Assembly (NCBI GenBank): GCA_963823665.1
Contig: CAWGMQ010000011.1
Span: 544,001-608,000 of the forward strand
DNA length: 64,000 nucleotides
DNA from: an uncultured Planctomycetota bacterium
Lineage (GTDB): Bacteria > Planctomycetota > Planctomycetia > Isosphaerales > Isosphaeraceae
Direction: 5' to 3'
The position numbers and the translations under genes are program-made. Positions 7,301 to 36,366 of the stretch are shown here, piece by piece. Within the stretch, counting starts at the first letter, position 1. Every line of letters begins with the position of its first letter. Under the pieces are notes generated by a model. That model was given only the letters and a program-made list of their open reading frames with translations, was not told where the DNA came from and did not search any database.

Positions 7301-8192
7301 GGGATTCCAGGATTCCAGACACCCATCCTTTTGTCTCGGTCCCGCGCATCCATTCATTCGCGGCTCGCTCGTTCGGTGCAAAACTACGGCCTCTGGTCAT
7401 TTCGAACTCGCAGAAGGCGAGTGCCCGACGCACGGCAAAACGTGGGTGTCTTTGCGTCAGGAAAGCTCGAGAAAGGAGGAAGTGCCTCGAAACACAGAAA
7501 CCTTTCATCGCGACCCTGCGGGTTAACGAATCCCGCCCGGCAGAGCCTGGCCGGCAGCCGGAAGCAAGTCTTGCGTGGGGAGGGGTGACCCTCACTGCGA
7601 AGCGTAGACAGCGAGTCTCCATGCCATGCTATCGAGCCCCGAAATACTCATCGTGGGAGCCTCCGTTGTAGACACAAGCGGGGGCCGCGTCGACACGCCG
7701 CAATGGCCTGGCGTGTTCGGTCCTGCCGGGGTCCAAGAACATGGCGCAGGGACGCGAGGGTTGCTCGGGAACCTGAGAGCCCCATCCGTCTCCACTGACA
7801 TTTCCGGCTCGGGAACCGGAATACCAACTCCCCGGCCCACGACCCCGCGTCGGGTCGCTGGGAGCGAACAAGACGCAAGGGTGGTATCGCAACATGAAGG
7901 CAACGAAATGTGACGAAAGGGGCGGACGGGAGTCGGAGTGCTCCGTAGTAGCAGTGAAGCGGGGGAATGGGCCCTCCCAGACCCTGTGGAGCGAAGGGGG
8001 TACCGTGTCGCGGACTGGAAGCCGGAACCACGCCGAGGGCATTGGACCTCAGAGCGCGTCACCGCGAGGCGACCAGATCGTGTGAGGGACAGCGACGCCG
8101 CGACATGACGAGCCGGATGCCTTAATTGGGCACGTCCGGATCAGTGGGAGCCCTGGCGGAGCGATCCGCCAGGGCGACCCGGCGACATCCCC
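7301..8192 (+). repeat. Hairpin repeat R1 (right arm split by intron)
   Basis: Left arm GGGATTCCAG-GATTCCAGACACCCATCC from 7301; right arm GTGGGTGTCT(7451)^GACATCCCC(8184-8192). Confidence 0.9.
7452..8183 (+). mobile_element. ORF-less group II intron, copy 1 (732 nt)
   Basis: 5' TTGCG; domain V GAGCCGGATGCCTTAATTGGGCACGTCCGGATC; domain VI hairpin ending GACCCGGC; EBS1 AGACAC at 7670-7675 complements exon GTGTCT; boundaries set from empty sites. Confidence 0.92.
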
Positions 8193-8621
8193 TTCCCTGC
8201 TTTTCATTCGTGCGATTCGTCAGATTCGTGGCTTCTCTTCCCCGCTCCGCGCCACGCTTCGCTTCCGCTTTTCGCCTTTGGACACGCACAACCTTGTTCC
8301 GCCCCGTCGTTCGCGATCGGTGCTACGCAAATTCTGCTTCCCCTGTCGGGCGACCATCGGGCGGCAGCCGCGCACGCCATGCTACCCGCCGATCATTCCG
8401 ATTGCTGCCGGCCGAAGCCAGCCCGTCCGTCCATTGCGGACCGACTTCCGCCGAGCGAAAGTGGAGGCGCGCCGAAAACAACCGGCGCGCATCAGCTTTC
8501 GGTTGGTAAAATGGTGGAAATCCCGATGGGCTGCATCGCTTGACCGTGAGTCTCGACCCTCAAAGGAACCGGGTTTGGCGTAGTTACGGATAGCGTCGTC
8601 TATGAAAGGGAGAGCAAAGCC

Positions 8622-8906
8622 GTGACCACCGTGCGTACCGTCATCCACGACCGGCGAATCGAGATTCCCGCACCCGAGAACCTCGCCGATGGTACGGAGG
8701 TAATCCTCACGATCGGCACCGATGTCGCCGATGACGACGGTCCGATGTCGCCCGCGGAAATCGCCCGCGTTCTGGCGGCTATGGGGCGCTTGCAACCACT
8801 CGAAATCCCCGACGATGTCGCGGCGGAACTCGACGCCTGGGAAAACAAGCTGAATCAACACGGCATCGATCGCGCTGAGCGTGAAGGCGAGGACATGTCC
8901 GGATGA
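8622..8906 (+). CDS. Putative antitoxin (VapB-like partner)
   Basis: Small acidic ORF overlapping (ATGA) the start of a PIN toxin gene. Confidence 0.75.
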   Translation: MTTVRTVIHDRRIEIPAPENLADGTEVILTIGTDVADDDGPMSPAEIARVLAAMGRLQPLEIPDDVAAELDAWENKLNQHGIDRAEREGEDMSG

Positions 8907-9301
8907 GACGGTTCATCCTCGATACCGGCATAGCCGCGCTGCATCTCGACCGCAAGCGAGGCGTATTTGAACGGGCAGCCGCCGAGGTCGCCAGAGGCAA
9001 CCGGGTCGGCATCGCGGCGCCGGTGCTCGCCGAACTTGCATTCCGGGCGGAAGGGAGCCCGCAACGCGAACGGAACATCCTGCGGCTTCGCCAGGCACTG
9101 GACGCGTGGAAACTCTGTTTGGTCGACACCGCAGCAGCATTCGAATACGGCCGGCTGGCACTCGAGTTGAAGTCGATCGGTCGCCCCATAGGCCAGAACG
9201 ACATCATGATCGCCGCCATCGCGCTGTCCCTGGGCAACACCACTGTCGTCACTACGGATAGCGACCTCGCCGCCGTCCCCGGATTGACCGTCGAGAACTG
9301 A
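8903..9301 (+). CDS. vapC: PIN-domain VapC family toxin
   Basis: FILDTG, LAEL, IGQNDIMIAAIA, VVTTDSDL..VPGLTVEN motifs. Confidence 0.92.
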   Translation: MRRFILDTGIAALHLDRKRGVFERAAAEVARGNRVGIAAPVLAELAFRAEGSPQRERNILRLRQALDAWKLCLVDTAAAFEYGRLALELKSIGRPIGQNDIMIAAIALSLGNTTVVTTDSDLAAVPGLTVEN

Positions 9302-9348
9302 GCGGAGGCCACTTAACCAGCGAATGTCCGGGTCTCCTGGCGTGGCCA

Positions 9349-10329
9349 GGAGCCAGACACCCAATCTCTGAGGAGCCGAGGAGCCAGACACCCAATCTCT
9401 GGTTCCGAGGAGGAGCCAGGGATTCCAGGCACCCATCCTTTGTCTCGCGGCCCCCGCATCCTTTCATTCGCGGCACGCAAGTCGGGTGCAAAACCACGGC
9501 CTCTGGTCAAGTCGAACACGCAGAACGCGAGCGCCTGACGCTCGGCAAACGGTGGGTGTCTGACATCCTCGGCAAACGGTGGGTGTCTTTGCGTCAGGAA
9601 AGCTCGAGAAAGGAGGAAGTGCCTCGAAACACAGAAACCTTTCATCGCGACCCTGCGGGTTAACGAATCCCGCCCGGCAGAGCCTGGCCGGCAGCCGGAA
9701 GCAAGTCTTGCGTGGGGAGGGGTGACCCTCACTGCGAAGCGTAGACAGCGAGTCTCCATGCCATGCTATCGAGCCCCGAAATACTCATCGTGGGAGCCTC
9801 CGTTGTAGACACAAGCGGGGGCCGTGTCGACACGCCGCAATGGCCTGGCGTGTTCGGTCCTGCCGGGGTCCAAGAACATGGCGCAGGGACGCGAGGGTTG
9901 CTCGGGAACCTGAGAGCCCCATCCGTCTCCACTGACATTTCCGGCTCGGGAACCGGAATACCAACTCCCCGGCCCACGACCCCGCGTCGGGTCGCTGGGA
10001 GCGAACAAGACGCAAGGGTGGTATCGCCAAACGAAGGCAACGAAGTGCGGCGAAATGGGCGGACGGGAGTCGGAGTGCTCCGTAGTAGCAGTGAAGCGGG
10101 GGAATGGGCCCTCCCAGACCCTGTGGAGCGAAGGGGGTACCGTGTCGCGGACTGGAAGCCGGAACCACGCCGAGGGCATTGGACCTCAGAGCGCGTCACC
10201 GCGAGGCGACCAGATCGTGTGAGGGACAGCGACGCCGCGACATGACGAGCCGGATGCCTTAATTGGGCACGTCCGGATCAGTGGGAGCCCTGGCGGAGCG
10301 ATCCGCCAGGGCGACCCGGCGACATCCCC
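9349..10329 (+). repeat. Hairpin repeat R2 with GGAGCCAGACACCCAATCTCTG sub-repeats and a duplicated right arm
   Basis: Sub-units at 9349-9418; main left arm at 9419; empty arm GGTGGGTGTCTGACATCC at 9551-9568; second arm split by intron. Confidence 0.9.
9589..10320 (+). mobile_element. ORF-less group II intron, copy 2 (732 nt)
   Basis: Near-identical to copy 1; same insertion point GGGTGTCT^GACATCCC. Confidence 0.92.
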
Positions 10330-10458
10330 AAAAATGAATGTCGGCCCGGACCTGGAAATCTCGGATTCGGTGCTCAGTGGCGAGAGGGTCGGTTCGCCCG
10401 ATAAGCTAAACGCACGTCGACCTTCACTGCGAATATGCAAAACCGGAGTGCGTTTGCC

Positions 10459-11724
10459 ATGCAATCGAGCCGTCGCCAGTTCTTGCAGCGCTCGGCCGCT
10501 CTTCCTCCAAGCTGGATGGCGTTCGCAACGGCCCTCGCGGCCGCGCGAACGACGCGAGCCGTCGCCGATGGGGGTTCGGATGAACTGCAGTGGCAACTTG
10601 TCCGACGACAGTTTCCGCTCGAAGACGGCCTGATCTACCTGAACGCCGCCAACGTCTGCCCGGTTTCGCGCCCGGTCCTCGATCGGTACGCTTCATTCTT
10701 GCGCGACTTCCAGGCCAACCCTTCTTTTCAGAATCGCGACAAGTACCACGCGCTTCGGGAATCGGTCCGCTCCAAGCTGGCTGCCCTTCTCGGCGTCTCG
10801 GCCGACGAGGTTGCCATCACTCGCAACACCAGCGAAGGCTCCAATCTCATCGTCCGCGGAATCGACCTCAAGCCCGGAGACGAAATCGTCATCACCGACC
10901 ACAACCATCCCTCGAACAATGAGAGCTGGAAGCTTCGCGCCCGCCGCGACGCCTTGGTGATCAGAAGTGTTCCAGCGCCCGTCCCGGCGCAGTCGCCCGA
11001 GCAACTGGTCGCCGGCATCGAGAAAGCCTTGAGCCCGCGCACGCGCGTGATAGCGCTCACCCATTTGACCAGCACCTGCGGCCTTCGATACCCTATCAAG
11101 CCAATCGCTGAGCTGGCCCGACGGCGCGACATTTTCCTGCATGTCGACGGCGCACAGTCGCTCGGCGCAAGCGACGTGAATCTCAGGAACCTCGGCTGCG
11201 ACTCATTCTCGGCCAGTGCACACAAGTGGCCGATGGGCCCTCTTGAAGCCGGGATTCTCTTCGTGCGCACCGAGCGGATCCCATCAGTCTGGCCGTCGAT
11301 TGTCTCGGCGGGCTGGAGCGACCAGCTCAAAGGCGCCAGGAAGTTCGAGTCGGTCGGCCAGCAGGATGACCCCCGAGTGGTCGCCCTGGAAGCGGCCCTG
11401 GACCTGCTCAACCTGATCGGTATCCGGCAGGTCGAAGCCCGAGTGCAGGCACTGGCTGGTCGCGTCAAACATTCGCTGTCAGAACTGGCGAACGTGGAAC
11501 TGAAAACGAATCTCGAGCCCGAACTCTCAGGCGGGGTAGTCAAGTTCAGACTCAAGAACATGCCCACTGCGCAAGCCTACGACGTGCTCTGGAAACGGCA
11601 TCGCCTGGCGATTGCGATGACCGGCGGAGGCGATTCGGAAGGACTGCGATTCTCGCCCCATATCTATAACACCGTCGACGAGATCGACCGCGCCGTAGCC
11701 GCCGTTCGCGAGCTCTCCGGATGA
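10459..11724 (+). CDS. Class V PLP-dependent aminotransferase (isopenicillin N epimerase/cysteine desulfurase-like) with probable Tat signal
   Basis: SRRQFL Tat motif; YLNAAN, TRNTSEG, HVDGAQ, SAHKW (PLP lysine), LRFSPHIYN. Confidence 0.9.
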   Translation: MQSSRRQFLQRSAALPPSWMAFATALAAARTTRAVADGGSDELQWQLVRRQFPLEDGLIYLNAANVCPVSRPVLDRYASFLRDFQANPSFQNRDKYHALRESVRSKLAALLGVSADEVAITRNTSEGSNLIVRGIDLKPGDEIVITDHNHPSNNESWKLRARRDALVIRSVPAPVPAQSPEQLVAGIEKALSPRTRVIALTHLTSTCGLRYPIKPIAELARRRDIFLHVDGAQSLGASDVNLRNLGCDSFSASAHKWPMGPLEAGILFVRTERIPSVWPSIVSAGWSDQLKGARKFESVGQQDDPRVVALEAALDLLNLIGIRQVEARVQALAGRVKHSLSELANVELKTNLEPELSGGVVKFRLKNMPTAQAYDVLWKRHRLAIAMTGGGDSEGLRFSPHIYNTVDEIDRAVAAVRELSG

Positions 11725-12390
11725 GTGCCACTCGCAGACCGAGGGCTTCGATGCCGAGATTGGAAAGCCGAACTTCGTCGTCACGGCGATCATGGCCCAC
11801 GAGCTCTGTCACACACTCCAGGGCCTCAGAAACTACCCGCTTCCAACGGTTCTCAAAGAGCTGCACGCCGACTTCCTGGCTGGCTGGGCGGTCAAGTACC
11901 TTCAAAGGGTCGGCAGCGCCCGATGTCGACGAGACCAAAATCTTCGGGTCGTTCTACAACAAGGGCGACGTTGAGTTCAACAACGAGCAACACCACGGCA
12001 CCAAAAAGGAACGCCTCGATGCCTTCCTCGCAGGCTTTGAGATCGAGGAAGATGACGTCAATGTGGCGTTCGACCGGGGTGACGTGTATGTCAGAAATCT
12101 ACGGATCCGAGACGCGCGGGAGTATTTCGCCAGGAACCTCAGCGTGTACTACGTGGCTGTCGGCAGCCCCGACGGCACATTTGGACTGAAGGTCACCCGC
12201 CCCCCCCGCAGCAGACTCGCCCGTCGGCCGAGGCGGGATCGAGGTTGGCGACGTGATCGTCTCGCTCGACGAACTGCCGATTCGAACTCCCGATGACGTC
12301 GCGAGGCACTTTGGGACCACTACCGTCGTGGTGATCGACGTCAGAACTGGGCAACCCCAGCGAACCGTCATCGAGCTTCCGCAACCCTGA
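11725..12390 (+). pseudogene. 5'-truncated zinc metallopeptidase + PDZ domain fragment with two frameshifts
   Basis: AHELCH...ELHADFLAG and HHGTKKERL motifs; C-terminal GIEVGDVIVSLD PDZ-like part; no N-terminus, abuts the aminotransferase stop. Confidence 0.6.
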
Positions 12391-13306
12391 TGGATGGAGA
12401 GAGCGGCCGGGGATCCCAGACACCCATCCTTTGTCTCAGGGATCCCAGACACCCATCCTTTGTCTCACGGCCCCCGCATCCATTCATTCGCGGCTCGCAC
12501 GCTCGGCGGAATACCACGGGATCCCAGACACCCATCCTTCGGGATCCCAGACACCCATCCTTTGTCTCACGGCCCCCGAATCCACTCATTAGCGGCTCGC
12601 ACGTTCGGCGCAAAACCACGGCCTCTGGTCATTTCCAACACGCAGAAGGCCAGTGCCCGACGCTCGGCAAACGGTGGGTGTCTGACATCCCTCTGACATC
12701 CCCGACGTTCGGCAAAAGGTGGGTGTCTTTGCGTCAGGAAAGCTCGAGAAAGGAGGAAGTGCCTCGAAACACAGAAACCTTTCATCGCGACCCTGCGGGT
12801 TAACGAATCCCGCCCGGCAGAGCCTGGCCGGCAGCCGGAAGCAAGTCTTGCGTGGGGAGGGGTGACCCTCACTGCGAAGCGTAGACAGCGAGTCTCCATG
12901 CCATGCTATCGAGCCCCGAAATACTCATCGTGGGAGCCTCCGTTGTAGACACAAGCGGGGGCCGTGTCGACACGCCGCAATGGCCTGGCGTGTTCGGTCC
13001 TGCCGGGGTCCAAGAACATGGCGCAGGGACGCGAGGGTTGCTCGGGAACCTGAGAGCCCCATCCGTCTCCACTGACATTTCCGGCTCGGGAACCGGAATA
13101 CCAACTCCCCGGCCCACGACCCCGCGTCGGGTCGCTGGGAGCGAACAGGACGCAAGGGTGGTATCGCCACACGAAGGCAACGAAGTGCGGCGAAAGGGGC
13201 GGATGGGAGTCGGAGCGTCTCGTAGTACCGTTGAAGCCGGGGAACCACTCCGAGGGACCCGGTGGAGGGAAGGAGACGCCATGTCACACAACCGTTGGAG
13301 GGAAAC

Positions 13307-14658
13307 ATGGCGGGTGCATCGGAACCCGTGGACGTGTCCACGAAACAACAACGGATAGCGGAACTCGCTCGGCGAAGCCCGGAGATGGGATTCACATCCC
13401 TGGGGCACTTCATCGACCTCGATTGGCTGCTCACAGCTTACTACCGGACCCGCCAAGACGGGGCGGTGGGCGTAGACGGACAAGATGGCGAGGCCTACGC
13501 AGCGAACCTGGTCCCGAACCTACGGTCGCTGCTGGAACGAGCCAAGTCCGGTACGTACCACGCACCGCCTGTGCGGCGAGTGCATATCCCCAAGGCAGGC
13601 TCAGCGACCGAAACCCGGCCACTGGGAATCCCGACCTTCGAGGATAAAGTGCTCCAGCGTGCTGTCGTGATGGTTCTGGAGGCGATATACGAGCAGGACT
13701 TCAAGAACTGCTCGCATGGCTTCCGGCCCGAGCGATCGGCACACACTGCGTCAGAGAGCCTGTGGCAACAGACGATGAACATGAAGGGCGGATGGGTAGT
13801 GGATGTGGACATTCGTAAGTTCTTTGACACGATTGACCACGGCCATCTACGCGACTTCCTCAAGCGTCGGGTGCGAGACGGAGTGCTGCTCCGGCTCATC
13901 GGCAAATGGCTCAATGCGGGCGTCTTCGAGAACGGGTGCGTTACGCACCCCGAAATGGGGTCGCCACAAGGGGGTGTGATCAGCCCGATCCTTTCGAATA
14001 TCTTCCTGCACTACGTGCTGGACGAGTGGTTCGAGCGGGAGGTTCAGCCTCGGATGATGGGCAGATCGTTCTTGATCCGCTATGCGGACGACTTCGTCAT
14101 GGTCTTCTCATGCGAGTCCGACGCACGGCGTGTGATGAATGTGTTGCCCAAACGCTTTGAGAAGTACGGCTTGACCATCCACCCGGACAAGACGCGGCTG
14201 GTGCCGTTCGAGCGGCCATCGGACCGTCCCAAACCGGAAGGCAGACCCACACGAACTCCACCAGGGACTTTCGACCTGCTGGCGTTCACCCATTACTGGG
14301 GTCGCTCCCGGCAGGGTCGCTGGGTGGTGAAGCGCAAGACGTCCAAAAGTCGATTTCGCCGCAGCCTGCGAACGTTGGCGGATTGGTGTCGCAAAATCGC
14401 CATCAACCGCTCAAGGTGCAGCACCGGATACTAGGTCAGAAACTGCTAGGCCACTATGCCTACTACGGAATCACCGGCAACTCCAAAATGTTGTCACGGT
14501 TTCGCAGTGGTGCCACCTGGCTCTGGCAGCACTGGCTGTCGCGCCGCGGGCGCGGCCGTCGGATGACATGGGAACGGTTCGCTCGGTTCCTGAAGCATAA
14601 ACCGCTTCCGGCAGCGATTGCGATCCACTCAGTATGCCGTCTCGTAGCGAACAAGTGA
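13307..14658 (+). CDS. ltrA: Group II intron reverse transcriptase/maturase without endonuclease domain; one-base frameshift at 14393-14396
   Basis: RPLGIPTFEDK, GFRP, DIRKFFD, GSPQGGVISP, RYADDF; X domain GHYAYYGITGN in the next frame; one extra A in the AAAA run restores RKNRHQP. Confidence 0.9.
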
Positions 14659-14705
14659 CATGACGAGCCGGGTGCCTTAATTGGGCAAGCCCGGATCTGT
14701 GGGAG

Positions 14706-17125
14706 TCGCGAAACGAAGCTGCGGATGAGTCTGTTATGACTGGATTTGCAACCAGGACATAACCCGATGTACGACCACCGGAACCCTACCAGGACGTGCG
14801 GCCGGAGCAATCCGACCGTGCGAAGCTCTTGGGACAACGTAACCTCACCTTCGGGTGGTTGGATATCCCGTGAGGGAATCCGGCGACTGCGAACGCCAAT
14901 GCGGTCGGGGGCCAGGGGTGGATGGCATGGCTAATCCAGGTGAACTGCCGATAAACGTCGTGAGATCCAACAAGCCAAAGGCGCTGAGAGGCTTGAACCA
15001 AAAAGGTACGTGGCCAGGTACAGTGGGATTTCCCATCCCCTGTCGTCGTCATCCGAGCCACCGGCGGAGAGGCAGAGCCTAAACCATCCGTGATTCATCC
15101 GTGGAACGTGGTAAGCCCGTCGCCCTCCCTTCGGGGTAGGACCGTCGTAAGGCGTCGCCGATGGGGCGGCGGGTGGAGGATGAGGGAGCAAGCCAATGCC
15201 GTTCGGTAGTCGATCGGATAGAGGGTGAGTCCTCCCACGGACGACATCCCCTCACCGCGAAAGCGGTGCCGACTTCCCTCAGGTGTTCCGTCACGAGAGA
15301 ACCTTGGCCAACCGACTCAGGGAGACAAGCAGATATGTCGGCGGCAGAAATGCTTGCTGGTGCGGCTCCCGAGCTTACGCCCGACTGGCACTCCATCGAA
15401 TGGAAGAAAGTCTGGCGCACAGTCCGTCGGCTCCAGGCGCGTATCGTGAAGGCTGTTGCGGAGGGCAGATGGAATAAGGTCAAGGCTCTGGTTTATCTGC
15501 TCACGCACTCGTTCAGTGGCCGGGCCCTGGCCATTTTGCGAGTCATCAGTAATTCGGGTGCGAAGACTCCCGGTGTGGACGGAGTTCTCTGGAACACACC
15601 GGAAGCCAAGTCGGCTGCTTTCAGCACTCTGCGTCGGCACGGTTACCAACCGCAACCGCTCCGCCGGGTGTACATTCCCAAAAGCAACGGCAAGCGACGT
15701 CCTCTCGGAATTCCCACCATGTCAGATCGAGCCATGCAGGCATTATACTTGCTAGGCCTCGATCCCATTGCGGAATCTCGAGCCGACGGCCATTCCTATG
15801 GCTTTCGGCTGGAACGTCGTTGTGCCGACGCCCTGGAACAATCTCATATTGTCTTGGGTAATCGGAGCGGTCCAGCATGGATTCTCGAAGGGGACATCAA
15901 AGCTTGCTTTGATCGCATCAGTCATGACTGGCTCTTGACGCACGTCCCCATGGACCGGCAGTTGCTCGGGCAATGGCTGAAAGTGGGTTTCCTGGAGAAG
16001 CACGCCTGGTTCGCCACCACGGAAGGAACACCTCAAGGCGGGATCATTTCACCCGTCCTGGCGAATTGGACTCTGGATGGACTGCAACGGCTGTTGGCGG
16101 AACAGTTCGCCGAGAAGCACGGGCGACAACGGAAGTTTAAAGTCCACCTGGTCCGCTATGCGGATGACTTCTTGATCACGGGCATCTCAAAGGAACTCCT
16201 CCGTGACCAAGTGCAACCTCTCGTGGCTCATTTCTTGAAGGAACGCGGCTTGGAACTTTCCCACGAGAAAACCCAGATCACGCATGTGGAGGATGGCTTC
16301 GATTTCTTGGGGCAGAATGTGCGACGCTATCGCTGCGGCAAGGTGTTCACCAAGCCGTCCTTGCGAAACGTGAAGACGTTCTTGAACAAGATACAGGAAA
16401 CGATCGACGGCTCGGGCAGCCTAACGGCAGGAGAGATGATCTGGCGTTTGAATCAGCAGATCAAGGGCTGGACCATGTACCACCGTTACGCGGCGAGCAA
16501 GCGCACTTTTACGTACGTGGATCACCGGATTTTCCAGAAATTGTGGCGTTGGTGTCGACGACGGCACCAGAACAAAGGCCGGAGGTGGATCAAGGAGAAA
16601 TACTTCCAGCAAGACGGTTACCGCCACTGGGTCTTCACCGGTACGCTGTTTGACCAGAAAGGCCAAGGCCGGCCGATCCAGTTGATGGAAGCAGCCAAAG
16701 TGAAGATCATTCGTTATGTGAAGATCCGGAGCGACGTGAATCCCTACGATCCGAAGTGGGAACTGTACCTGGAAGCACGACTGGGTTGGCAACTGAGCCA
16801 AACGCTGGCAGGTCGGGGTCGGATCGAATACTTATGGAAGGAACAAGAGGGACGATGCGTGGTCTGTGGTCAACCGCTGCGGATCGCAGAGGAAGACTTG
16901 CATCTCCACCATCGCATCTGGCGCAGCCGGGGCGGTTCTGGCACAGCCGACAACCTGGAGTTGTTGCATGCCAACTGTCATCGGCAGATCCATGTCCAAG
17001 AACGACTGACGAAAGCGGCCGCGTCCTGCGAGGGGCGTTCGTGAAGGCTTGAGCTGCATGAAGGGAAACTTTCACGTGCAGTTCTGAGGGGAGGGGGTGG
17101 CGGTAACGTCACCTCCTTACCCGGC
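14706..17125 (+). mobile_element. Inner group II intron (CL-like, IIB) inserted in domain VI of the outer intron
   Basis: Removing it restores GGGAG-CCTTGGGGGA-GCGA-TCCCCCAAGG-CGACCCGGC; it has its own DV (GAGCTGCATGAAGGGAAACTTTCACGTGCAGTTC, about 17051-17084) and DVI; putative EBS1 TTCCCA (15030-15035) pairs with TGGGAG. Confidence 0.9.
15335..17044 (+). CDS. ltrA: Group II intron RT/maturase with C-terminal HNH endonuclease
   Basis: [18 protein letters not shown]-terminal domain, [17 protein letters not shown] domain, CVVC...HLHH...[16 protein letters not shown] upstream of the ATG. Confidence 0.95.
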
Positions 17126-17318
17126 CCTTGGGGGAGCGATCCCCCAAGGCGACCCGGCGACATCCCTGACATCCCCTAAGCGTGATAAGTAAACGGCAGG
17201 GGAAGAGTCGGACGGTCGCTGGAAGCTAACTCCCACCGACGTAGTGACCCTAACGGCAGGCCCACCAGGTCGCCGTCGGCGGGGTGTAATTACAGCGCGA
17301 GCTCGTTATGATAAATCC

Positions 17319-17585: not shown

Positions 17586-17587
17586 CC

Positions 17588-19734: not shown

Positions 19735-19897
19735 GGGATTCCAGGGGATTCCAGACACCCATCCTTTTGTCACGGCCCTCCGCATCCACTCATTCGCGGC
19801 TCGCACGTTCGGCGCAAAACCACGGCCTCTGGTCATTTCCAACACGCATAAGGCTAGTACCCGACGCTCGGCAAACGGTGGGTTTCTGACATCCCCC
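19735..19897 (+). repeat. Hairpin repeat R5, intron-free, with altered target (GGGTTTCT)
   Basis: Complete unit with both arms; IBS1 changed from GTGTCT to GTTTCT. Confidence 0.9.
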
Positions 19898-24473: not shown

Positions 24474-24737
24474 GGACAACCGTCCGAGGAGGAGGAGCCA
24501 GGGGGAGCCAGACACCCAATCTCTGGACAACCGTCCGAGGAGCCGAGGAGCCAGAGGAGCCAGACACCCAATCTCTGGTTCCGAGGAGAAGCCAGGGAAT
24601 CCAGGCACCCATCCTTTTCTCACGGTCTTCCATATCCATTCATTCGCAGCTCGCACGTTCGGCGCAAAACCACGGCCTCTGGTCACTTCGAACACCCATA
24701 ACGCGAGTGTCCGACGCTCCGCAAGAGGTGGGTGTCT
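24474..24737 (+). repeat. Hairpin repeat R6 with sub-repeats; right arm ends at the intron insertion point
   Basis: GGAGCCAGACACCCAATCTCTGG twice; left arm at 24595; GGTGGGTGTCT followed by GTGCG instead of GACATCCC. Confidence 0.85.
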
Positions 24738-24833
24738 GTGCGTCGTTGGCTCGGTGTCACCGCGTTTGCGCCTGAATCTCTCGCCTGAATCGGCTCCTGA
24801 GCCCTGTGTCAAACAATTCCGGCCCCGGCAAAC

Positions 24834-27113: not shown

Positions 27114-28068
27114 GGAGGAGCCAGACGCCCAATCTCTGGTTCCCAGGAGGAGCCGGGGAATCCAGACACCCATCGTTTTATCAGGGAATCCAGACACCCA
27201 TCGTTTTATCACGGTCCCCCCCATCCATTCACTCGCGGCTCGCAAGTTCGGTGCAAAACCACGGCCGCCGGTCATTTCGAACACGCAGAAGGCGAGTGCC
27301 CGACGCTCGGCAAAAGGTGGGTGTCTTTGCGTCAGGAAAAGCTCGAGAAAGGAGGAAGTGCCTCGAAACACAGAAACCTTTCATCGCAACCCTGCGGGTT
27401 AACGAATCCCGCCCGGCAGAGCCTGGCCGGCAGCCGGAAGCAAGTCTTGCGTGGGGAGGGGTGACCCTCACTGCGAAGCGTAGACAGCGAGTCCACATGC
27501 CATGCTATCGAGCCCCGAAATACTCATCGTGGGAGCCTCCGTTGTAGACACAAGCGGGGGCCGCGTCGACACGCCGCAATGGCCTGGCGTGTTCGGTCCT
27601 GCCGGGGTCCAAGAACATGGCGCAGGGACGCGAGGGTTGCTCGGGATCCTGAGAGCCCCATCCGTCTCCACTGACATTTCCGGCTCGGGAACCGGAATAC
27701 CAACTCCCCGGCCCACGACCCCGCGTCGGGTCGCTGGGAGCGAACAAGACGCAAGGGTGGTATCGCAACATGAAGGCAACGAAATGTGACGAAAGGGGCG
27801 GATGGGAGTCGGAGTGCTCCGTAGTAGCAGTGAAGCGGGGGAATGGGCCCTCCCAGACCCTGTGGAGCGAAGGGGGCACCGTGTCGTGGACTGGACGCCG
27901 GAACCACGCCGAGGGCATTGGACCTCAAAGCGTGTGACCGTAAGGCAGCCAGATCGTGAGAGGGACAGCGACGCCGCGACATGACGAGCCGGATGCCTTA
28001 ATTGGGCACGTCCGGATCAGTGGGAGCCCTGGCGGAGCGATCCGCCAGGGCGACCCGGCGACATCCCC
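27114..28068 (+). repeat. Hairpin repeat R7 (split by intron)
   Basis: Sub-repeat, duplicated GGGAATCCAGACACCCATCG left arms, right arm split at 27326/28060. Confidence 0.9.
27327..28059 (+). mobile_element. ORF-less group II intron, copy 4 (733 nt, the most divergent)
   Basis: Same ends and domains as the other copies, with several substitutions. Confidence 0.92.
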
Positions 28069-28441
28069 GCGTGAAATTTATGCCGATAGCGGCATAACTT
28101 TCATAATGCCGCCTTCCGGATTACGCCGACTGGGGTTCGCATGGTGATGCGACCTCCGGCGCATCGCGCGGGTCCTTCACGGCCTTGAGATATGGTGCCA
28201 TCCACGGGATTGTGAATGATGCAAAGAGCGTCGCGGAACGCTATCATTCGGAGGATGGACCGTGCTGGAACTTTGACCATCAATCGGTCACTCAGAGGAC
28301 GCTCGTGCGGCTGTCCAATGTGTAAAGGGTGAATATCCCCCTCGCATCAACGACATCCGAGACGAGGGTTAAGGACTTACGTCACACTTCCAATGTAAGG
28401 CCTGATCCAGAAACGAGAATTCACGGACGGAGCGGCTCGCA

Positions 28442-29041: not shown

Positions 29042-29097
29042 AAAAGGCGTGCGATGATGCACCCATTAGCGGCTCGTGAACCCGTTGTCGGCGACTT

Positions 29098-29649: not shown

Positions 29650-29950
29650 GGGCTCTCTCCCGGAACGAGGGGCGAGGTCAAGGCACCCGGCAATCCCGAA
29701 TCTACGCGACGCCGCAGCTTCTTTCTAGCGAGTGACGTCGGAGGTTGGCGGCCCTTATTCCAGTTTCCTGTTCGTTTGCTATCCTCGGCTACACATTAAG
29801 GGTCAAGTCGCGGGGCGAGACTTACCAGTTCAGGCTGCTATCGACCTCGCGTTGGTGGTGGGGGTGGTGGGACCTGGACCGTTTTTGGTTCGCCGATACA
29901 GCACTTCCCCTGAGAAGGGAGCTCGTAAACCCGGACTGGCGAGGGTCCAA

Positions 29951-30776
29951 GGGGATTCCAGACGCCCACCCTATTGTCATGGTCCCCCGCATCCATTCAT
30001 TCGCGACTCGCGCACTCGGCAAACGGTGGGTGTCTTTGCGTCAGGAAAGCTCGAGAAAGGAGGAAGTGCCTCGAAACACAGAAACCTTTCATCGCGACCC
30101 TGCGGGTTAACGAATCCCGCCCGGCAGAGCCTGGCCGGCAGCCGGAAGCAAGTCTTGCGTGGGGAGGGGTGACCCTCACTGCGAAGCGTAGACAGCGAGT
30201 CTCCATGCCATGCTATCGAGCCCCGAAATACTCATCGTGGGAGCCTCCGTTGTAGACACAAGCGGGGGCCGTGTCGACACGCCGCAATGGCCTGGCGTGT
30301 TCGGTCCTGCCGGGGTCCAAGAACATGGCGCAGGGACGCGAGGGTTGCTCGGGAACCTGAGAGCCCCATCCGTCTCCACTGACATTTCCGGCTCGGGAAC
30401 CGGAATACCAACTCCCCGGCCCACGACCCCGCGTCGGGTCGCTGGGAGCGAACAAGACGCAAGGGTGGTATCGCCAAACGAAGGCAACGAAGTGCGGCGA
30501 AATGGGCGGACGGGAGTCGGAGTGCTCCGTAGTAGCAGTGAAGCGGGGGAATGGGCCCTCCCAGACCCTGTGGAGCGAAGGGGGTACCGTGTCGCGGACT
30601 GGAAGCCGGAACCACGCCGAGGGCATTGGACCTCAGAGCGCGTCACCGCGAGGCGACCAGATCGTGTGAGGGACAGCGACGCCGCGACATGACGAGCCGG
30701 ATGCCTTAATTGGGCACGTCCGGATCAGTGGGAGCCCTGGCGGAGCGATCCGCCAGGGCGACCCGGCGACATCCCC
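29951..30776 (+). repeat. Hairpin repeat R8, internally deleted (split by intron)
   Basis: Both arms present but the central part is missing. Confidence 0.85.
30036..30767 (+). mobile_element. ORF-less group II intron, copy 5 (732 nt)
   Basis: Appears identical to copy 2 by eye. Confidence 0.92.
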
Positions 30777-31121
30777 TTCAGCGACCTTGCCGAGCAGGTA
30801 GCCAAGCTCGTCCCCGTCAAGCCCGGCGACCTCGGCAATCCCGTGGATATTCCGGATCAGGTCCGCTTCAGCGCCGATGACGACCGTGTGTGTTACCTCA
30901 CTCCTCGGCCGGGCGAGAACGAAGCGGTCCCATGAGATGAACAGTTCCTCGATCTTGGGTGTCGTCCAGTCCTCGTCGAGTAGAGCGGCCAGGAGCGCAG
31001 TGAACATTACGCCGGTCTCGATCGGCTTGAGTTTCCGGGCGCAGTCGGCGCGGATCTGGGCGGGGTGTTCGTACGACGACGTGAAGCGGATCATCAAGAT
31101 CCTCGCCACGTGGGGTGCCAA
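30777..31121 (-). pseudogene. Hypothetical gene whose 3' end runs into repeat R8
   Basis: Protein-like ORF (..GLDGDELGYLLGKVAE) continues without a stop into the repeat and intron. Confidence 0.5.
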
Positions 31122-31344
31122 GATCAGCGGCGAACAGTTCCGGGAGCAAACCTCTGCCTATCTTAAGAAACGACCCGCCAGGTGAATCGCGCAATCGGTC
31201 TCCGCACTCGAACGAAATCATCGGCCGCTGTCGCCCGCGGTTCAAAGGCGTGCGTTCTGCCCAGAAGAACGCACATGACTGTAGATCGGCCGGGATCACC
31301 GTCTCAATACGGATTTTGGCTCTTCTGCACGTCCCGATTCACCT

Positions 31345-31893
31345 CTAAAGGTCATCGACGAGTTTTGGCAAATTGCGGAGCCAAACTAAAGGATTGAACG
31401 TTTCCTCGAACGCCCAACCCGCGAAGCTGCATTGCGCAACGAACGTCTCACGAGCAGTATTTCCTGATTTCCAGTGGCGGCCAGGAATGGCTTCCAGCGA
31501 TTCAAACTCGGTCAACACGGCATCGCAACTTATTTTGTTCATCGGCTTTTCACCCAATCGCCACCAGTTGGTGAGTCGGTCAGGGCGAGCTTGATAAAAA
31601 TCCCGCACCTCAGCGCCTTGCGGTGGGGAACTCACCTTGTCCTGCGAAACTAAACGGGCGACTACAGCCTCGACCCTTGGTGATCGATCCGGATGATGGA
31701 AAATCACGCATACGGAGTTACCAGCGCGCAAAAAACCAGTGCCAGCGTGGTGAGTCGCGAACCAAGCGGCTGAATTCGGATCGCGGCGGCACTGTTTCAC
31801 GATGTTTCGTAGTTCCGTGGCAGGGTGAGGCCCGCCATTCATCGACAGCTTTGTTAGAACATGTGAATAATGTTTAACTGAAGTCGCGGCCAT
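31345..31893 (-). CDS. Hypothetical protein (lower GC)
   Basis: 182-aa ORF with GGAG upstream of the ATG. Confidence 0.6.
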   Translation of the reverse strand: MAATSVKHYSHVLTKLSMNGGPHPATELRNIVKQCRRDPNSAAWFATHHAGTGFLRAGNSVCVIFHHPDRSPRVEAVVARLVSQDKVSSPPQGAEVRDFYQARPDRLTNWWRLGEKPMNKISCDAVLTEFESLEAIPGRHWKSGNTARETFVAQCSFAGWAFEETFNPLVWLRNLPKLVDDL

Positions 31894-32130
31894 AAACTGT
31901 TACTCTCCTGGAGTTTTGCTGATTGCGTGAGACAACTTCCGGGATGGCGCACCGGCGAGCCCGCCACGGTCATCTTGACCGACGACGATGTCCCGGGATT
32001 GAGTGAGGTTGAGATCGCGGCCGAATAGACTGCGAGCAGCATTATAACCGATCGGCACAAAACATCCTGGTACGACGGTCCACTGGGCGGTGCTCGCACG
32101 CCGGGCCATACCCTGGTGATCTTTATGCCT

Positions 32131-32325
32131 GGGGATTCCAGACACCCATCCTTTAGTCACGGTCCCCCGAATCCATTCATTCGCGGCTCGCTCGTTCGGC
32201 GCAAAATCACGGCCTCTGGTCAAGTCGAACACGCAGAAGGCGAGTGCCCGACGCTCGCCAAAACGTGGGCGTCTAACATCCCGACATCCCCGACGCTCGG
32301 CAAACGGTGGGTGTCTGACATCCCC
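32131..32325 (+). repeat. Hairpin repeat R9, intron-free with intact target site
   Basis: Complete unit with duplicated right arm; GTGTCT^GACATCCCC at 32311-32325. Confidence 0.92.
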
Positions 32326-32541
32326 GCCCCTTCCGGAACAGACTCTGAGGCGTTAGACTCGGGAGTGACGCCGGTGTATCGATGCGGCCCGTCCCGATCG
32401 AGGGCCGCATCTCCCGAGCCGGAGACGATCCCGCGTCGAGTTTCCAGATAGGACCCACCTGCGACGAACCGTCAGGCCGGTGATTACGTTTAGCAGAGAG
32501 AGTCGGATGGAGTCTCCCAGCACATCTCGCGGAGAGTTCCC

Positions 32542-34134
32542 ATGAGATGTCGACGGCAAGTCCCCGCGCTGGTCGTGCCCCTGGCGTGCCTCGTCGCCTG
32601 GGGGGTCTCCCGAGTAGGACTCGCCCGAAGCGATGATCTCCCCGGCCGGAAGCCGGAGGCCCCGGCCGCCAGGGCCGAGCGGCGGGCCGACCTGGGCGCG
32701 ATGGCCTGGACGACGGCCGTCGAGCCCAACGCGCTGAGCCCAAGCGTGAAGAACGGCCTCGACTGGCTGGTTGCGCATCAACTCTCGAGCGGCGGCTGGG
32801 GCGAGGGCGACGCGATGATGCAGGCGGGCGCGACCCTCCGAGGCGTCTCGATCCGCGACACGCCCAATGTTGCCGACACGTGTATCGCTTCCCTCGCCCT
32901 GATCCGATCGGGGAGCACGCCGCGCGAGGGGCCGTATCGCGGCGCGATCGTCAAGGGCGTCGGGTACGTCACCACCCAGGTCCGGGAATCCGACGCCGGG
33001 TCGCTCTCGGTAACGAGCGCGCGCGGGACGCGCGACCAGATGAAGCTCGGGCCCAACATCGACACTTACCTGGCTTCCATGCTCTTGGCCGAGGTGAAGG
33101 GGCGCATGCCCGACGAGGCGAGCAAGAGCGCCGTCGACCAGGCCCTGGACAAGGTGATCGGCAAGATCGAGCGGCACCTGGCGGGGGATGGCCCGTTCGA
33201 GTTCCAGGGGTATGCACCGGTCCTGGCGCTGGCCATGTCCGCCAAGGGGCTCAATCGCGCGCGCCAGGCCGGGGTGCGCGTCTCGGACGTCGCCCTGGCC
33301 CGGGCGGCGGACGCCGCGCGGATGGCCTACACGACCGGAGGCTGGCCGGTGGCGTACCAGATGGCAGGCCGGTCGATGGCGATCGGTCATGCACGTACGG
33401 GCCACAAGCCATCGACGCGGCCGAGGGCGACGGACGGCGTGGGGTCGGCGGCCGAGGGGTCGAGCCGGTCGATGGCGGCGGGTGTGGACGACGAGGATGA
33501 CGACCTCCGGACGGAACCTTCGGCGGGCAGCCCGGCATCCCCATCGCACGGGACCAGGAGGATGACGAAACGCGGGGCGGCGAGGCCCGGCACGGGTGCC
33601 GGCCGTCCGATGATGACAGGCATGGCGGCTGGGTCCCCGCTCTACGGCTGGTCCGCCTGCCTCGGCATCCTGCAAGATTCCCTCAATACGGGCAGGGCGC
33701 AGCTCCCGCGGCTCCGCGACCAGGCGGCCCATTCCCGGGACCCGCAGGAGTGCGCCCAGGCCAGAAAGAAGCTCGCACGGATCGCCGAGGTGGAGCAGGT
33801 CCAGCGGGGGGCCCAGGCGGCCGTCGTCGCGCGGCTGGGTGGCCCAGGATTCCTCCTCTTCGCCGGCATGGACGGCGGCGAGGAATTCCTCAGCTACATG
33901 ACCCTCGCCGAGAGCCTGGCCGTCACGGGCGACGAGGCGTGGAGGCGCTGGGATTCCGGGATGACCGACTACCTCAACCGGGTGCAGAACGCCGACGGGA
34001 GCTGGTCCGGCAGCCATTGCATCACGGGCCGCACCTTCTGCACCTCGGCGGCGCTCCTGACCTTGATGGCCGACCGCACCCCGGTCCCCGTCCCCGTCCC
34101 GGCCCGGGCGAAGACCTCGTCCTCCTCCCAATGA
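32542..34134 (+). CDS. Secreted prenyltransferase/squalene-oxidase-repeat (alpha/alpha toroid) protein
   Basis: GLDWLVAHQLSSGGW and QNADGSW repeats; signal peptide. Confidence 0.8.
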   Translation: MRCRRQVPALVVPLACLVAWGVSRVGLARSDDLPGRKPEAPAARAERRADLGAMAWTTAVEPNALSPSVKNGLDWLVAHQLSSGGWGEGDAMMQAGATLRGVSIRDTPNVADTCIASLALIRSGSTPREGPYRGAIVKGVGYVTTQVRESDAGSLSVTSARGTRDQMKLGPNIDTYLASMLLAEVKGRMPDEASKSAVDQALDKVIGKIERHLAGDGPFEFQGYAPVLALAMSAKGLNRARQAGVRVSDVALARAADAARMAYTTGGWPVAYQMAGRSMAIGHARTGHKPSTRPRATDGVGSAAEGSSRSMAAGVDDEDDDLRTEPSAGSPASPSHGTRRMTKRGAARPGTGAGRPMMTGMAAGSPLYGWSACLGILQDSLNTGRAQLPRLRDQAAHSRDPQECAQARKKLARIAEVEQVQRGAQAAVVARLGGPGFLLFAGMDGGEEFLSYMTLAESLAVTGDEAWRRWDSGMTDYLNRVQNADGSWSGSHCITGRTFCTSAALLTLMADRTPVPVPVPARAKTSSSSQ

Positions 34135-34141
34135 GCCTGCC

Positions 34142-35367
34142 ATGGAGCCCCATCTGATCCGGCCCGGTCGCCGAGTCGCGGCGCTGATCGTGGTCTCGCT
34201 GGCGACCTGGCTGGCCTCGTGCCGCCCGCGAAGCGAGGCCCCCGGCGCCCGGGTCGACCGGGCGCTGGGCCGTGCGTTGCGATCGCTTATTGTCGCCCAG
34301 TCCCCCGACGGGGCCTGGCGATCGTCGACCTACGGCGTGTTCAAGGACGGCTTGTCGCTGACACCCACGGTGCTGAAGGCAGTCGCGTTCGGGCCGGACG
34401 TCGACGGTTCCGCGATGGCAAGGCGCCGCGCGGCCGGGTACCTGATCGGGTGCGTCAGGGCCGACGGCTCGATCGACGGCGGCCGGTTCGGCATGACCTA
34501 TCCGGTCTACAACGCCTCGGCCGCGGTGATCACGCTGACGGTCCTCGATGTCCCGGAGGGCCGCGGGCGCGCGACGCCTGGCTCCGCGAGCTGCGCCGGC
34601 GGCAATCGACCGAGGTCCTCGGATGGGGGCCCGGCGATCCGGCGTTCGGCGGATGGGGCTACTCGATCGAGCCGCCGTCGCGGGGAGATGCGGCCCTCGC
34701 CCCGGGCCAGCATGTAGACGCCGACCTCTCCTCGACCTTGTTCGCGATCGGAGCCTTGCGGATCGCCGGGGTGGAGGCCGAAGATCCCGCGATCCGCAAG
34801 GCCTTGACCTTCGTCGAGCGGTGCCAGAACGTCGCGGCGGGCGATGAGGGGAGCGATCCGCGATTCGATGACGGGGGCTTCTTCTTCACGACGACCGACC
34901 CGGTGCGCAACAAGGCCGGCGTCGCGGGCATGGATCGGCACGGCTGGACGCGCTACCACTCCTATGGCAGCGCGACGGCCGACGGGCTGAGAGCCCTGCT
35001 GCGTTGCGGCCTCGCCAGGGATCATCCGCGGGTCGCCGCCGCAAGGAAGTGGCTGGAGGCGAATTTCTCGCCCTCGACCAATCCCGGCACGTTCGAGCCA
35101 GCCCGCGAGTCCGACCGCGACGCCACGTATTTCTACTACGCGTGGTCGGTCGCCCACGCCTTCCGCGGCCTGGGGATCGCGGAGATCGAGTGCGACGGCC
35201 GCAGGATCGCCTGGGCCGAAGTCCTCGCGACCGAACTCGTCCGCAGGCAGCGCGACGACGGGAGCTGGGCTAACCGGTTCACTGCGTCCAAGGAAGATGA
35301 CCCCCTCGTCGCGACACCCTTCGCGGCCGGGGCACTCGGCATCTGTCGGACGTTCCTCGCCCGATGA
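34142..35367 (+). CDS. Prenyltransferase/squalene-oxidase-repeat protein; frameshift near 34562
   Basis: QSPDGAW, FGGWGY, DGGF, QRDDGSW repeats across two overlapping frames. Confidence 0.75.
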
Positions 35368-35438
35368 ATCCCATTGAGCGCCGACCGGACACCACCCGTG
35401 AATTCACACTGACAACTCAAAGTATTCATGAATATTAA

Positions 35439-36366
35439 GGGATGTCAGACACCCACCTTTGGGATGTCAGACACCCACCTTTGGGGATGTCAGACACCCA
35501 CCTTTTGCCGGGCGTCGGACACGCGCCTTCTGCGTGTTCGAAATGACCGGGGGCCGTGGTCTTGCGCCGAACTTGCGAGCCGCGAATGAATGGATGCCGG
35601 GGCCGTGACAAAAAGATGGGTGTCTTTGCGTCAGGAAAAGCTCGAGAAAGGAGGAAGTGCCTCGAAACACAGAAACCTTTCATCGCGACCCTGCGGGTTA
35701 ACGAATCCCGCCCGGCAGAGCCTGGCCGGCAGCCGGAAGCAAGTCTTGCGTGGGGAGGGGTGACCCTCACTGCGAAGCGTAGACAGCGAGTCTCCATGCC
35801 ATGCTATCGAGCCCCGAAATACTCATCGTGGGAGCCTCCGTTGTAGACACAAGCGGGGGCCGTGTCGACACGCCGCAATGGCCTGGCGTGTTCGGTCCTG
35901 CCGGGGTCCAAGAACATGGCGCAGGGACGCGAGGGTTGCTCGGGAACCTGAGAGCCCCATCCGTCTCCACTGACATTTCCGGCTCGGGAACCGGAATACC
36001 AACTCCCCGGCCCACGACCCCGCGTCGGGTCGCTGGGAGCGAACAAGACGCAAGGGTGGTATCGCCAAACGAAGGCAACGAAGTGCGGCGAAATGGGCGG
36101 ACGGGAGTCGGAGTGCTCCGTAGTAGCAGTGAAGCGGGGGAATGGGCCCTCCCAGACCCTGTGGAGCGAAGGGGGTACCGTGTCGCGGACTGGAAGCCGG
36201 AACCACGCCGAGGGCATTGGACCTCAGAGCGCGTCACCGCGAGGCGACCAGATCGTGAGAGGGACAGCGACGCCGCGACATGACGAGCCGGATGCCTTAA
36301 TTGGGCACGTCCGGATCAGTGGGAGCCCTGGCGGAGCGATCCGCCAGGGCGACCCGGCGGAATCCC
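35439..36366 (-). repeat. Hairpin repeat R10, inverted; intron lies in the opposite arm
   Basis: GGGATGTCAGACACCCACCTTT three times, reverse-complement core, GATGGGTGTCT^GGAATCCC. Confidence 0.9.
35626..36358 (+). mobile_element. ORF-less group II intron, copy 6 (733 nt)
   Basis: Same element; 3' exon begins GGAATCCC. Confidence 0.92.

What the first reader, a model, noticed from the sequence alone, without database searches (positions are those of the whole stretch)
7452..36358. ORF-less group II introns homing into the hairpin repeat
Seen: five 732-733 nt ORF-less introns and one RT-encoding relative all sit at GGGTGTCT^G. Empty sites (9551-9568, 32311-32325) define the boundaries. The loop sequence AGACAC (7670-7675 in copy 1) is the exact complement of the exon end GTGTCT and is also the core motif of the repeat. 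The termini are non-canonical (TTGCG...CGGC) and domain V has a TTAATT loop. Inference: these are non-autonomous ribozymes mobilised in trans by an endonuclease-minus RT (13307-14658 is the local candidate) and specialised on a multicopy intergenic site. Occupying a hairpin arm may also block recombination at that site.
Basis: partly seen in the sequence, partly recalled or inferred. Interest (0 to 1): 0.8.

Follow-up and report, generated by a model that had tools for sequence, protein, structure and literature searches.

The report
Mosaic protein-less introns targeting repeat ends
A self-splicing mobile RNA without its own enzyme has copied itself into the ends of a small repeat; that habit is known, but this one appears to be a hybrid that took its aiming half from the enzyme-carrying intron in the same genome, as relatives did independently.

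Summary
Confirmed: five 732-733-nt ORF-less group II introns and one RT-bearing sister sit at GGGTGTCT^G. Genome-wide there are 14 and 6 copies, with unrelated flanks and 141 empty sites. EBS1 pairs 6/6 at 19 of 20 sites. Both arms of a 150-bp inverted repeat are used, and the strand is biased.

Corrections: the local RT is frameshifted and its intron carries a nested 2,420-nt endonuclease-plus intron; intact 450-aa copies lie on another contig. The U1...G(-2) termini covary with canonical G1...A(-2) in 48 of 48 scorable homologues.

New: the element is a mosaic. Domains I-II are 398/401 identical to the resident RT intron. Domains III-IV belong to an older ORF-less lineage that forms one clade across four genomes (100/99), while its domains I-II do not (AU p=3e-8).

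Homing into inverted repeats (RmInt2) and trans-mobilised ORF-less introns (TeI3c) are published, and this scan noted the habit on other DNA before. Splicing and mobility are not shown. Verdict: new variant of a known kind.

The parts
7452..8183 (+). ORF-less group II intron, family A, copy 1 (732 nt; TTGCG...CCGGC)
7648..7654 (+). predicted EBS2 (UCAUCGU); pairs with exon -13..-7, and its U at -10 accepts both the G of the right arm and the A of the left arm
   Evidence: loop position from the Rfam alignment; inferred
7670..7675 (+). EBS1 (AGACAC), complement of IBS1 GTGTCT
7928..7939 (+). inferred crossover at the conserved J2/3 segment: RT-intron-like upstream, older ORF-less lineage downstream
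   Evidence: 126 of 127 leading informative sites match the RT sister, then a switch between nt 477 and 488
7939..8109 (+). domains III-IV of the old ORF-less lineage (domain IV keeps a folded remnant of the ORF start)
8110..8183 (+). domain V (AGC triad, 5-nt UAAUU loop) and domain VI with bulged A at 8177
7310..7451 (+). 150-bp inverted-repeat element, right arm interrupted by copy 1 (arm resumes at 8184)
9419..9588 (+). repeat with an empty right arm (9554) and a tandemly duplicated arm that is filled
9589..10320 (+). ORF-less copy 2
   Evidence: a DNA contig of run X1 matches 9599-10383 with 0 differences (that run may be the source sample)
12406..12728 (+). repeat cluster with duplicated arms before the RT-bearing intron
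12729..17158 (+). RT-bearing family A intron, interrupted in domain VI by intron N
13307..14658 (+). endonuclease-minus RT/maturase gene, frameshifted (375 aa); intact 450-aa versions on contig C6
14706..17125 (+). nested intron N (2,420 nt, TCGCG...CCGGC), 7 identical copies in the genome, all in domain VI of family A or B introns
15335..17044 (+). RT + maturase + HNH endonuclease of intron N (569 aa)
19741..19895 (+). empty repeat; its right arm reads GGGTTTCT (IBS1 mismatch)
24595..24738 (+). empty repeat, right arm truncated after GGGTGTCTG
27184..27326 (+). repeat, right arm filled
27327..28059 (+). ORF-less copy 3 (most diverged in the window, 97.7% to copy 1)
29950..30035 (+). internally deleted repeat, right arm filled
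30036..30767 (+). ORF-less copy 4
32128..32325 (+). empty repeat with duplicated right arm (empty site at 32309)
35439..35625 (-). repeat in reverse orientation: three tandem right-arm sites on the - strand are empty, the left arm on the + strand is filled
35626..36358 (+). ORF-less copy 5, inserted in the left arm (GGGTGTCT^GGAATCCC)

Best explanation
Family A is a non-autonomous, IIB-like (class E/F-like) group II intron. Its excised RNA binds the endonuclease-minus RT/maturase made by intact sister copies (inferred). It reverse-splices into single-stranded DNA at (A)CGRTGG-GTGTCT^G by EBS1/EBS2 pairing (pairing shown in sequence), mostly on the lagging-strand template, where the replication fork supplies the primer (strand bias shown, mechanism taken from known En-minus introns). 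The motif lies in both arms of an abundant 150-bp inverted-repeat element, so one arm is always on the usable strand. The element is a recombinant: domains III-IV come from a long-lived ORF-less lineage, and domains I-II (the targeting module) were taken from the resident RT intron by a crossover at the conserved J2/3 segment. Relatives repeated this with their own resident RT introns (mosaic shown by trees; the mechanism, homologous recombination or RT template switching, is inferred). A base change in domain VI may shield the proliferating copies from the nested intron N.
For: Site pairing: IBS1 6/6 at 19 of 20 genomic sites, 5/6 at 1; IBS3 G in 18, A in 2. Flanks unrelated beyond the repeat. 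141 empty RTGGGTGTCTR sites against 17 for the reversed control pattern. Intact RT: 2 of 6 copies give 450 aa with YADD, TIGR04416 above cut-off, no HNH hit. Strand: in the window 6 filled/4 empty on +, 0 filled/12 empty on - (Fisher p=0.003); intron strand matches the locally G-rich strand in 8 of 8 clusters with a clear skew (16 of 20 copies; read by eye). Mosaic: identity to the RT sister 398/401 over nt 1-400, 46/70 and 46/98 over nt 491-650, where ORF-less family B gives 54/70 and 70/91. In the DIII-DIV tree 7 ORF-less rows from 4 genomes are one clade, 100/99 (99/98 on DIII alone). In the DI-DII tree that clade is rejected (AU p=3e-8), and own A, G003 and G002 each pair with a co-resident intron (100/99, 100/98, 99/96). 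G030 has another crossover point: DI 94% to A, DII 92% to B. 25 of 78 predicted DIII-DVI pairs show compensatory change among 7 ORF-less rows. N: 7 of 9 hosts with perfect IBS2 are invaded, 0 of 14 with a mismatch.
Against: No spliced junction, lariat or circle in three RNA runs and one DNA run, all contigs. The 7-row ORF-less group was chosen after seeing the identity table, the DIII-DIV alignment has only 140 columns, and holding G003's ORF-less and RT rows together there is not rejected (p=0.083); 3 of 47 rows were dropped as truncated or near-duplicate. Other ORF-less relatives (G014, G022, G034) look like plain deletions. The G002 partner is truncated and not shown to encode an RT. Skew is patchy; 4 A copies lie in unclear regions, and fragments at C5:2-9 kb and a B copy at C8:472 kb lie against or off the skew. 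The ORF-less domain IV differs much from the sister's, so a different RT could be the helper. The 13 N-free ORF-less copies share one ancestor, so p=1.5e-4 overstates.
Confidence: 0.68

Rival explanations
1. Ordinary ORF-deletion derivatives of the resident RT intron, as for TeI3; domains III-IV diverged fast once the ORF was lost, and the ORF-less clade is a long-branch artefact.
For: Published pattern (PMC2882425, passages). G014, G022 and G034 ORF-less introns fit it. Domains V-VI of A are closer to the RT sister (45/50, 28/32) than to B (40/52, 22/32).
Against: A sharp switch at nt 477-488 from near-identity to B-like bases. Domain III is non-coding yet gives the same clade at 99/98. A and B share 84% of domain III while domain I is about 70% alike.
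Confidence: 0.15
2. The mosaic is real but ran the other way, or the helper is another RT: the RT intron took domains I-II from the ORF-less element, or a diverged RT (61% and 71% fragments on C5, or the 479-aa family) mobilises the ORF-less copies.
For: Other RT genes exist in the genome. Domain IV, the usual protein-binding region, is unlike the sister's.
Against: The RT sister resembles the G014/G003 RT introns in both halves, so the ORF-less element is the incongruent one. The C5 matches are partial, and the 479-aa introns have a different RNA with canonical ends.
Confidence: 0.1
3. The lineage depends on the HUH (Y1) transposase that acts on these inverted repeats, using its single-strand nicks or exposed hairpins as entry or primer.
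For: 9 of 29 homologous RT introns with pyrimidine starts sit on the published TIRYT motif GGGGWSAS, against 32 of 6,200 control 18-mers; 12 of 29 with GG[GT]GWSAS, and 0 of 12 for G-start introns. A family B variant targets GCGTCC^, like the repeat beside Y1 gene L080. 11 Y1 genes in the genome.
Against: The family A arm fits the motif only with one mismatch, which 9.7% of control 18-mers also do. No Y1 gene flanked by these arms in 11 own loci, 30 loci of three relatives or 120 metagenome loci. Strand bias and EBS pairing explain the sites without a nuclease. Several of the 29 loci share genomes.
Confidence: 0.05
4. Copies spread passively by segmental duplication or with the repeat, or are assembly artefacts.
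For: Copies cluster (6 of 20 in this window); two loci hold adjacent tandem copies.
Against: Flanks diverge within 16 nt on the 3' side; both arms and non-repeat sites are used; copies differ at 40 columns; one DNA contig spans a junction exactly.
Confidence: 0.02

Closest known systems
RmInt2 of Sinorhizobium meliloti GR4 (RmInt1-related, En-minus), in the inverted repeats of ISRm17 (PMC4615759; passages read)
   Same: En-minus intron that uses both inverted repeats of a mobile element, so one target is on the lagging strand; relaxed EBS2 pairing.
   Different: RmInt2 encodes its own RT and targets an autonomous IS. Here most copies (14 of 20) are ORF-less mosaics, the target is a 150-bp non-coding element, and the RT looks to be of another class.
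ORF-less TeI3 introns and TeI4 RT introns of Thermosynechococcus elongatus (PMC2882425; passages read)
   Same: ORF-less majority mobilised in trans, EBS divergence into families, twintrons, a functional 5' U in TeI4h.
   Different: TeI3 arose by one deletion from the resident CL/IIB1 intron, whose protein has an endonuclease domain. Here the helper lacks the endonuclease and the ORF-less domains III-IV predate the resident RT intron and recur across genera.
Bacterial class E/F group II introns (PMC3753933, introduction and section 15 read; PMC3552965, parts 1-2 of 4)
   Same: No endonuclease domain, 5-nt domain V loop, EBS1/EBS2/EBS3 recognition; ribozyme size near the 450-700 nt given.
   Different: U1...G(-2) termini instead of GUGYG...AY; class E versus F/g1-g6 not settled here.
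TIR repeats of TIRYT (Y1 HUH) transposases (PMC3733652, passages; PMC6006769, passages and section 20)
   Same: Imperfect inverted arms, dimers and tandem clusters, Y1 genes with such arms in this genome, many homologous introns on the GGGGWSAS motif.
   Different: The arm targeted here departs from the consensus by one base and no parent transposase flanked by it was found.
UHB.I2, a CL1/IIB1 intron with 5'-UUGCG..GU-3' ends (PMC7923331; passages)
   Same: U at the first and G at the penultimate position.
   Different: A single intron of another class; no covariation across a clade was reported in the passages seen.

Membership tests
Group II intron | Domain I core with EBS1 loop | tested here: met
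   RF02005 at 138-140 bits in 6 of 6 copies
Group II intron | Domain V with AGC triad and bulge; domain VI with bulged A at -7 | tested here: met
   folds; RF00029 itself gives no hit
Group II intron | GUGYG...AY termini | tested here: not met
   UUGCG...GC; the first and penultimate bases covary in homologues (31 T/G, 1 C/G, 16 G/A of 48 with both ends called, out of 80 loci), as expected of the known first-penultimate contact (cited in PMC4238363)
Group II intron | Self-splicing, lariat formation | not testable with these tools
   no spliced joint in the 4 runs laid, all contigs
ORF-less intron mobilised in trans (TeI3 type) | Related intact RT intron in the same genome | tested here: met
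   2 of 6 RT copies intact, 450 aa
ORF-less intron mobilised in trans (TeI3 type) | Precise insertions with EBS-IBS pairing and unrelated flanks | tested here: met
ORF-less intron mobilised in trans (TeI3 type) | Derived from the resident RT intron by ORF deletion alone | tested here: not met
   domains III-IV come from another lineage
Class E/F (En-minus, IIB-like) | IEP without endonuclease domain | tested here: met
   RVT_1 above cut-off, no HNH at E<=0.1; TIGR04416 326.7 bits
Class E/F (En-minus, IIB-like) | 5-nt domain V loop | tested here: met
   UAAUU; feature from PMC3753933
Class E/F (En-minus, IIB-like) | IEP groups with named class E or F references in a tree | not tested
   no class-labelled reference sequences were fetched; a class E look of the X domain is recalled, from no call
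Class C (IIC) terminator or attC introns | Short IBS1, no EBS2, insertion after a stem-loop | tested here: not met
   6-bp IBS1 plus EBS2 pairing; no terminator-like site at the insertions in 6900-13400
TIRYT-associated TIR repeat (for the 150-bp target) | GGGGWSAS motif in the arms | tested here: inconclusive
   one mismatch; 9.7% of control 18-mers pass at that level
TIRYT-associated TIR repeat (for the 150-bp target) | Same arms flank a Y1 transposase gene | tested here: not met
   not seen in 11 own, 30 related and 120 metagenome loci; one repeat lies inside a Y1 gene (L076)

The most novel reading that the evidence does not exclude
A long-lived, protein-less group II 'chassis' (domains III-IV) persists across a bacterial family by repeatedly capturing the targeting module (domain I, sometimes II) of whichever RT intron shares its genome. 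It thereby inherits that intron's target and helper. The same clade uses a compensated U1-G(-2) terminal pair, favours the inverted repeats of Y1 transposases, and here escapes a nested hyper-parasite through one base in domain VI.
Probability: 0.55. Interest if true: 0.7.

Novelty: new variant of a known kind. Interest (0 to 1): 0.55.

Why it matters
ORF-less bacterial introns are described as rare and as derivatives of a resident intron (PMC4424553, passages). An old ORF-less lineage that survives by swapping domains would change how these elements persist and shows natural modular retargeting of a ribozyme. The Rfam domain V model misses these introns, so surveys built on it would undercount them. 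The clade-wide U1/G(-2) pair gives natural material to test the first-penultimate contact. The system is compact and testable: one 732-nt RNA, an intact RT, two target arms, and a nested intron with a candidate immunity base.

Tried and rejected
Segmental duplication: rejected. A second intron at 24738, suggested by GTGCG after the arm: the sequence that follows is not an intron. The local RT as helper: frameshifted, with the same break in the C3:1264199 copy, so probably real. Search for the repeat's parent transposase: none found; the repeat body itself was found in 3 of 60 other genomes, strongly only in the same genus. Raw GC skew of short loci was too noisy; four-fold sites in 60 further 20-kb regions were used instead. 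Public runs: RNA contigs cover parts of the intron at 88-100% identity but show no exon joint and cannot show expression. Solved-structure and plasmid searches gave only generic group II RTs, best 58%, and no class label. Promoter scan 6900-13400: 0 sites. The EBS1 scores for homologues (41 of 50 at 6/6, 9 at 5/6) take the best hexamer in a 50-nt window with G-U allowed, so they are partly selected. The gamma-gamma' tally used a loose anchor and is not used. Literature searches that showed no description of introns on RAYT/TIRYT repeats or of this domain swap, judged from listings only: (0 papers). The library lacks most subscription papers. The class-specific boundary consensus in a supplement of PMC4028801 was not seen and may bear on the termini.
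Full report
**Observation.** The window (63% G+C, contig C11 of a 16.46-Mb genome) holds six elements starting TTGCGTCAGG directly after GGGTGTCT. Each matches Rfam group-II-D1D4-6 at 138-140 bits. Five are 732-733 nt without an ORF; the sixth (12729-17158) carries an RT gene and a nested intron. Empty sites read GGGTGTCT^GACATCC. The intron ends at CCGGC, since two genomic copies are followed by A rather than G. The closest RT relatives come from Planctomycetota records, many of them Isosphaeraceae, so the host is probably of that group (inferred).

**Genome-wide picture.** There are 14 ORF-less and 6 RT-bearing family A copies (the search scored 40 of 80 candidates, so distant fragments may be missed). 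The RT is intact (450 aa, YADD, TIGR04416 above cut-off, no HNH) in 2 of 6 copies, both on contig C6. The window copy and one other share a frameshift (375 aa), and two more have other breaks. IBS1 pairs 6/6 at 19 of 20 sites. A predicted EBS2, UCAUCGU, pairs with positions -13 to -7, with a U opposite the position that is G in the right arm and A in the left arm. Similar flanks extend at most 16 nt on the 3' side and 166 nt on the 5' side, which excludes segmental duplication. There are 141 empty RTGGGTGTCTR sites against 17 for the reversed pattern. A second ORF-less family, B (71% to A; four near-complete copies), carries EBS1 UGUCUG in three copies and targets CAGACA^CCC, the opposite strand of the same arm motif; a variant with EBS1 GGACGC sits at GCGTCC^.

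**The target.** The repeat is about 150 bp with imperfect inverted arms (fold z=-2.5), at least 40 copies (40 of 102 candidates scored), often with tandemly duplicated arms. Its build recalls the TIR repeats of TIRYT transposases (PMC3733652, passages; PMC6006769, passages and section 20). Y1 genes of this genome have such arms, and 9 of 29 homologous pyrimidine-start introns sit on the published GGGGWSAS motif, against 0.5% of control 18-mers; 12 of 29 with a motif that I widened after seeing L072, and 0 of 12 G-start introns. The family A arm fits only with one mismatch and no parent transposase was found, so membership is open.

**Strand choice.** All six window copies lie on the + strand: 6 filled and 4 empty sites on +, 0 and 12 on - (p=0.003). 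At 35439-35625 the repeat is reversed; three perfect right-arm sites on - stay empty and the left arm on + is filled. Using G/C skew at four-fold sites, the intron strand equals the locally G-rich strand in 8 of 8 clusters with a clear signal (16 of 20 copies, read by eye). Four copies lie in unclear regions, and some B copies and fragments go against it. By convention the G-rich strand is the lagging-strand template, as expected for En-minus introns primed at the fork (PMC4424553, passages; PMC4615759, passages).

**Termini.** Of 80 homologous RT loci, 48 had both ends called: 31 T...G(-2), 1 C...G(-2), 16 G...A(-2), none mixed. These fall largely into two clades, so the count is not 48 independent events. 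Independent support comes from intron N (TCGCG...CCGGC) and from the published UHB.I2 (UUGCG..GU; PMC7923331, passages). A first-penultimate contact is established (cited in PMC4238363, passages; the original paper was not read), and a 5' U is functional in TeI4h (PMC2882425, passages). The termini are thus a compensated variant, not decay.

**Mosaic origin.** ORF-less A equals its RT sister at 398 of 401 columns over nt 1-400, but only 46/70 and 46/98 over nt 491-650, where family B gives 54/70 and 70/91. Informative sites switch between nt 477 and 488, the conserved J2/3 segment. In a tree of domains III-IV (44 rows; 3 dropped as truncated or near-duplicate), seven ORF-less rows from four genomes form one clade (100/99; 99/98 on non-coding domain III alone). 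In the tree of domains I-II that clade is rejected (AU p=3e-8), and own A, G003 and G002 each join a co-resident intron. G030 has A-type domain I (94%), B-type domain II (92%) and the old domains III-IV, at the same target motif. The old module keeps its fold with compensatory changes (25 of 78 pairs over domains III-VI). Against: the group was named after the identity table, the alignment is short, the G003 test in that tree is not significant (p=0.083), and three other ORF-less relatives are plain deletions. Domains V-VI of A are nearer the RT sister than B, so more than one exchange is implied. Two non-RT hosts of intron N carry the RT sister's domain VI exactly, a further sign of exchange.

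**Nested intron N.** Seven identical 2,420-nt copies with RT, maturase and HNH sit at one site in domain VI of A or B introns. Its EBS1 (UUCCCA) and a candidate EBS2 (AGAUCC) match the host site. Hosts with the perfect IBS2 are invaded in 7 of 9 cases, hosts with a mismatch in 0 of 14, among them all 13 uninterrupted ORF-less A copies. The 13 share ancestry, so this is a lead, not proof.

**What is not shown.** Splicing, expression and mobility. Three RNA runs and one DNA run, all contigs, gave no exon joint.

**Comparison and verdict.** It works like RmInt2 (both inverted repeats, lagging strand) combined with TeI3 (ORF-less, trans). Earlier notes of this scan describe the same habit in other genomes (unchecked AI notes); none matched this sequence or the domain swap. 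The habit is known. The mosaic ORF-less lineage, the clade-wide terminal pair and the possible escape from N did not appear in the listings, within a library that lacks most subscription papers. New variant of a known kind; interest 0.55.

Noticed in passing
L048, L049, L050 (G000 C8:613 kb, C8:128 kb, C6:816 kb): A third intron family, three copies with a 479-aa open RT frame, canonical GTGCG...CTCGAC ends and T-rich 5' exons; unrelated RNA.
   Followed up: partly
L053-L057: Five family B remnants that all stop near nt 112-116; L056 joins that point to domain IV, L053 resumes in domain II.
   Followed up: partly
window 8624-9301: Small ORF followed by a PIN-domain gene, a likely toxin-antitoxin pair between intron copies 1 and 2 (the first ORF was not scanned).
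   Followed up: no
window 9345-9420, 24490-24600, 27115-27150: A second short repeat, GGAGCCAGACACCCAATCTCTGG, in tandem against the left arm of the main repeat; same core, never filled by family A here.
   Followed up: no
L197 2647-4005 (G030): An IS110-family transposase inserted in domain II of the ORF-less intron; four similar copies by BLAST spacing.
   Followed up: partly
L076 (G000 C8:1768 kb): The 150-bp repeat interrupts a Y1 transposase gene.
   Followed up: partly
L052 (G000 C8:1396 kb): A 3' fragment of an N-like intron followed by a family A-like domain VI.
   Followed up: no
L031 7571: A family B copy starting CTGCG/TGCG whose 5' flank does not pair with its EBS1, right after an RT-bearing A copy; probably rearranged.
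   Followed up: no
G000 contigs C3, C5, C6, C8, C10, C11: G/C skew changes sign on a scale of about 100 kb, which suggests many inversions or a mosaic assembly.
   Followed up: no
window 45263-52387: Large duplicated genes with internal repeats of about 126 nt, 74-84% alike.
   Followed up: no
window 7310-36358: Target sites are far denser here (22 in 64 kb) than in 1.2 Mb of sampled regions (2 empty sites); reason unexplained.
   Followed up: no
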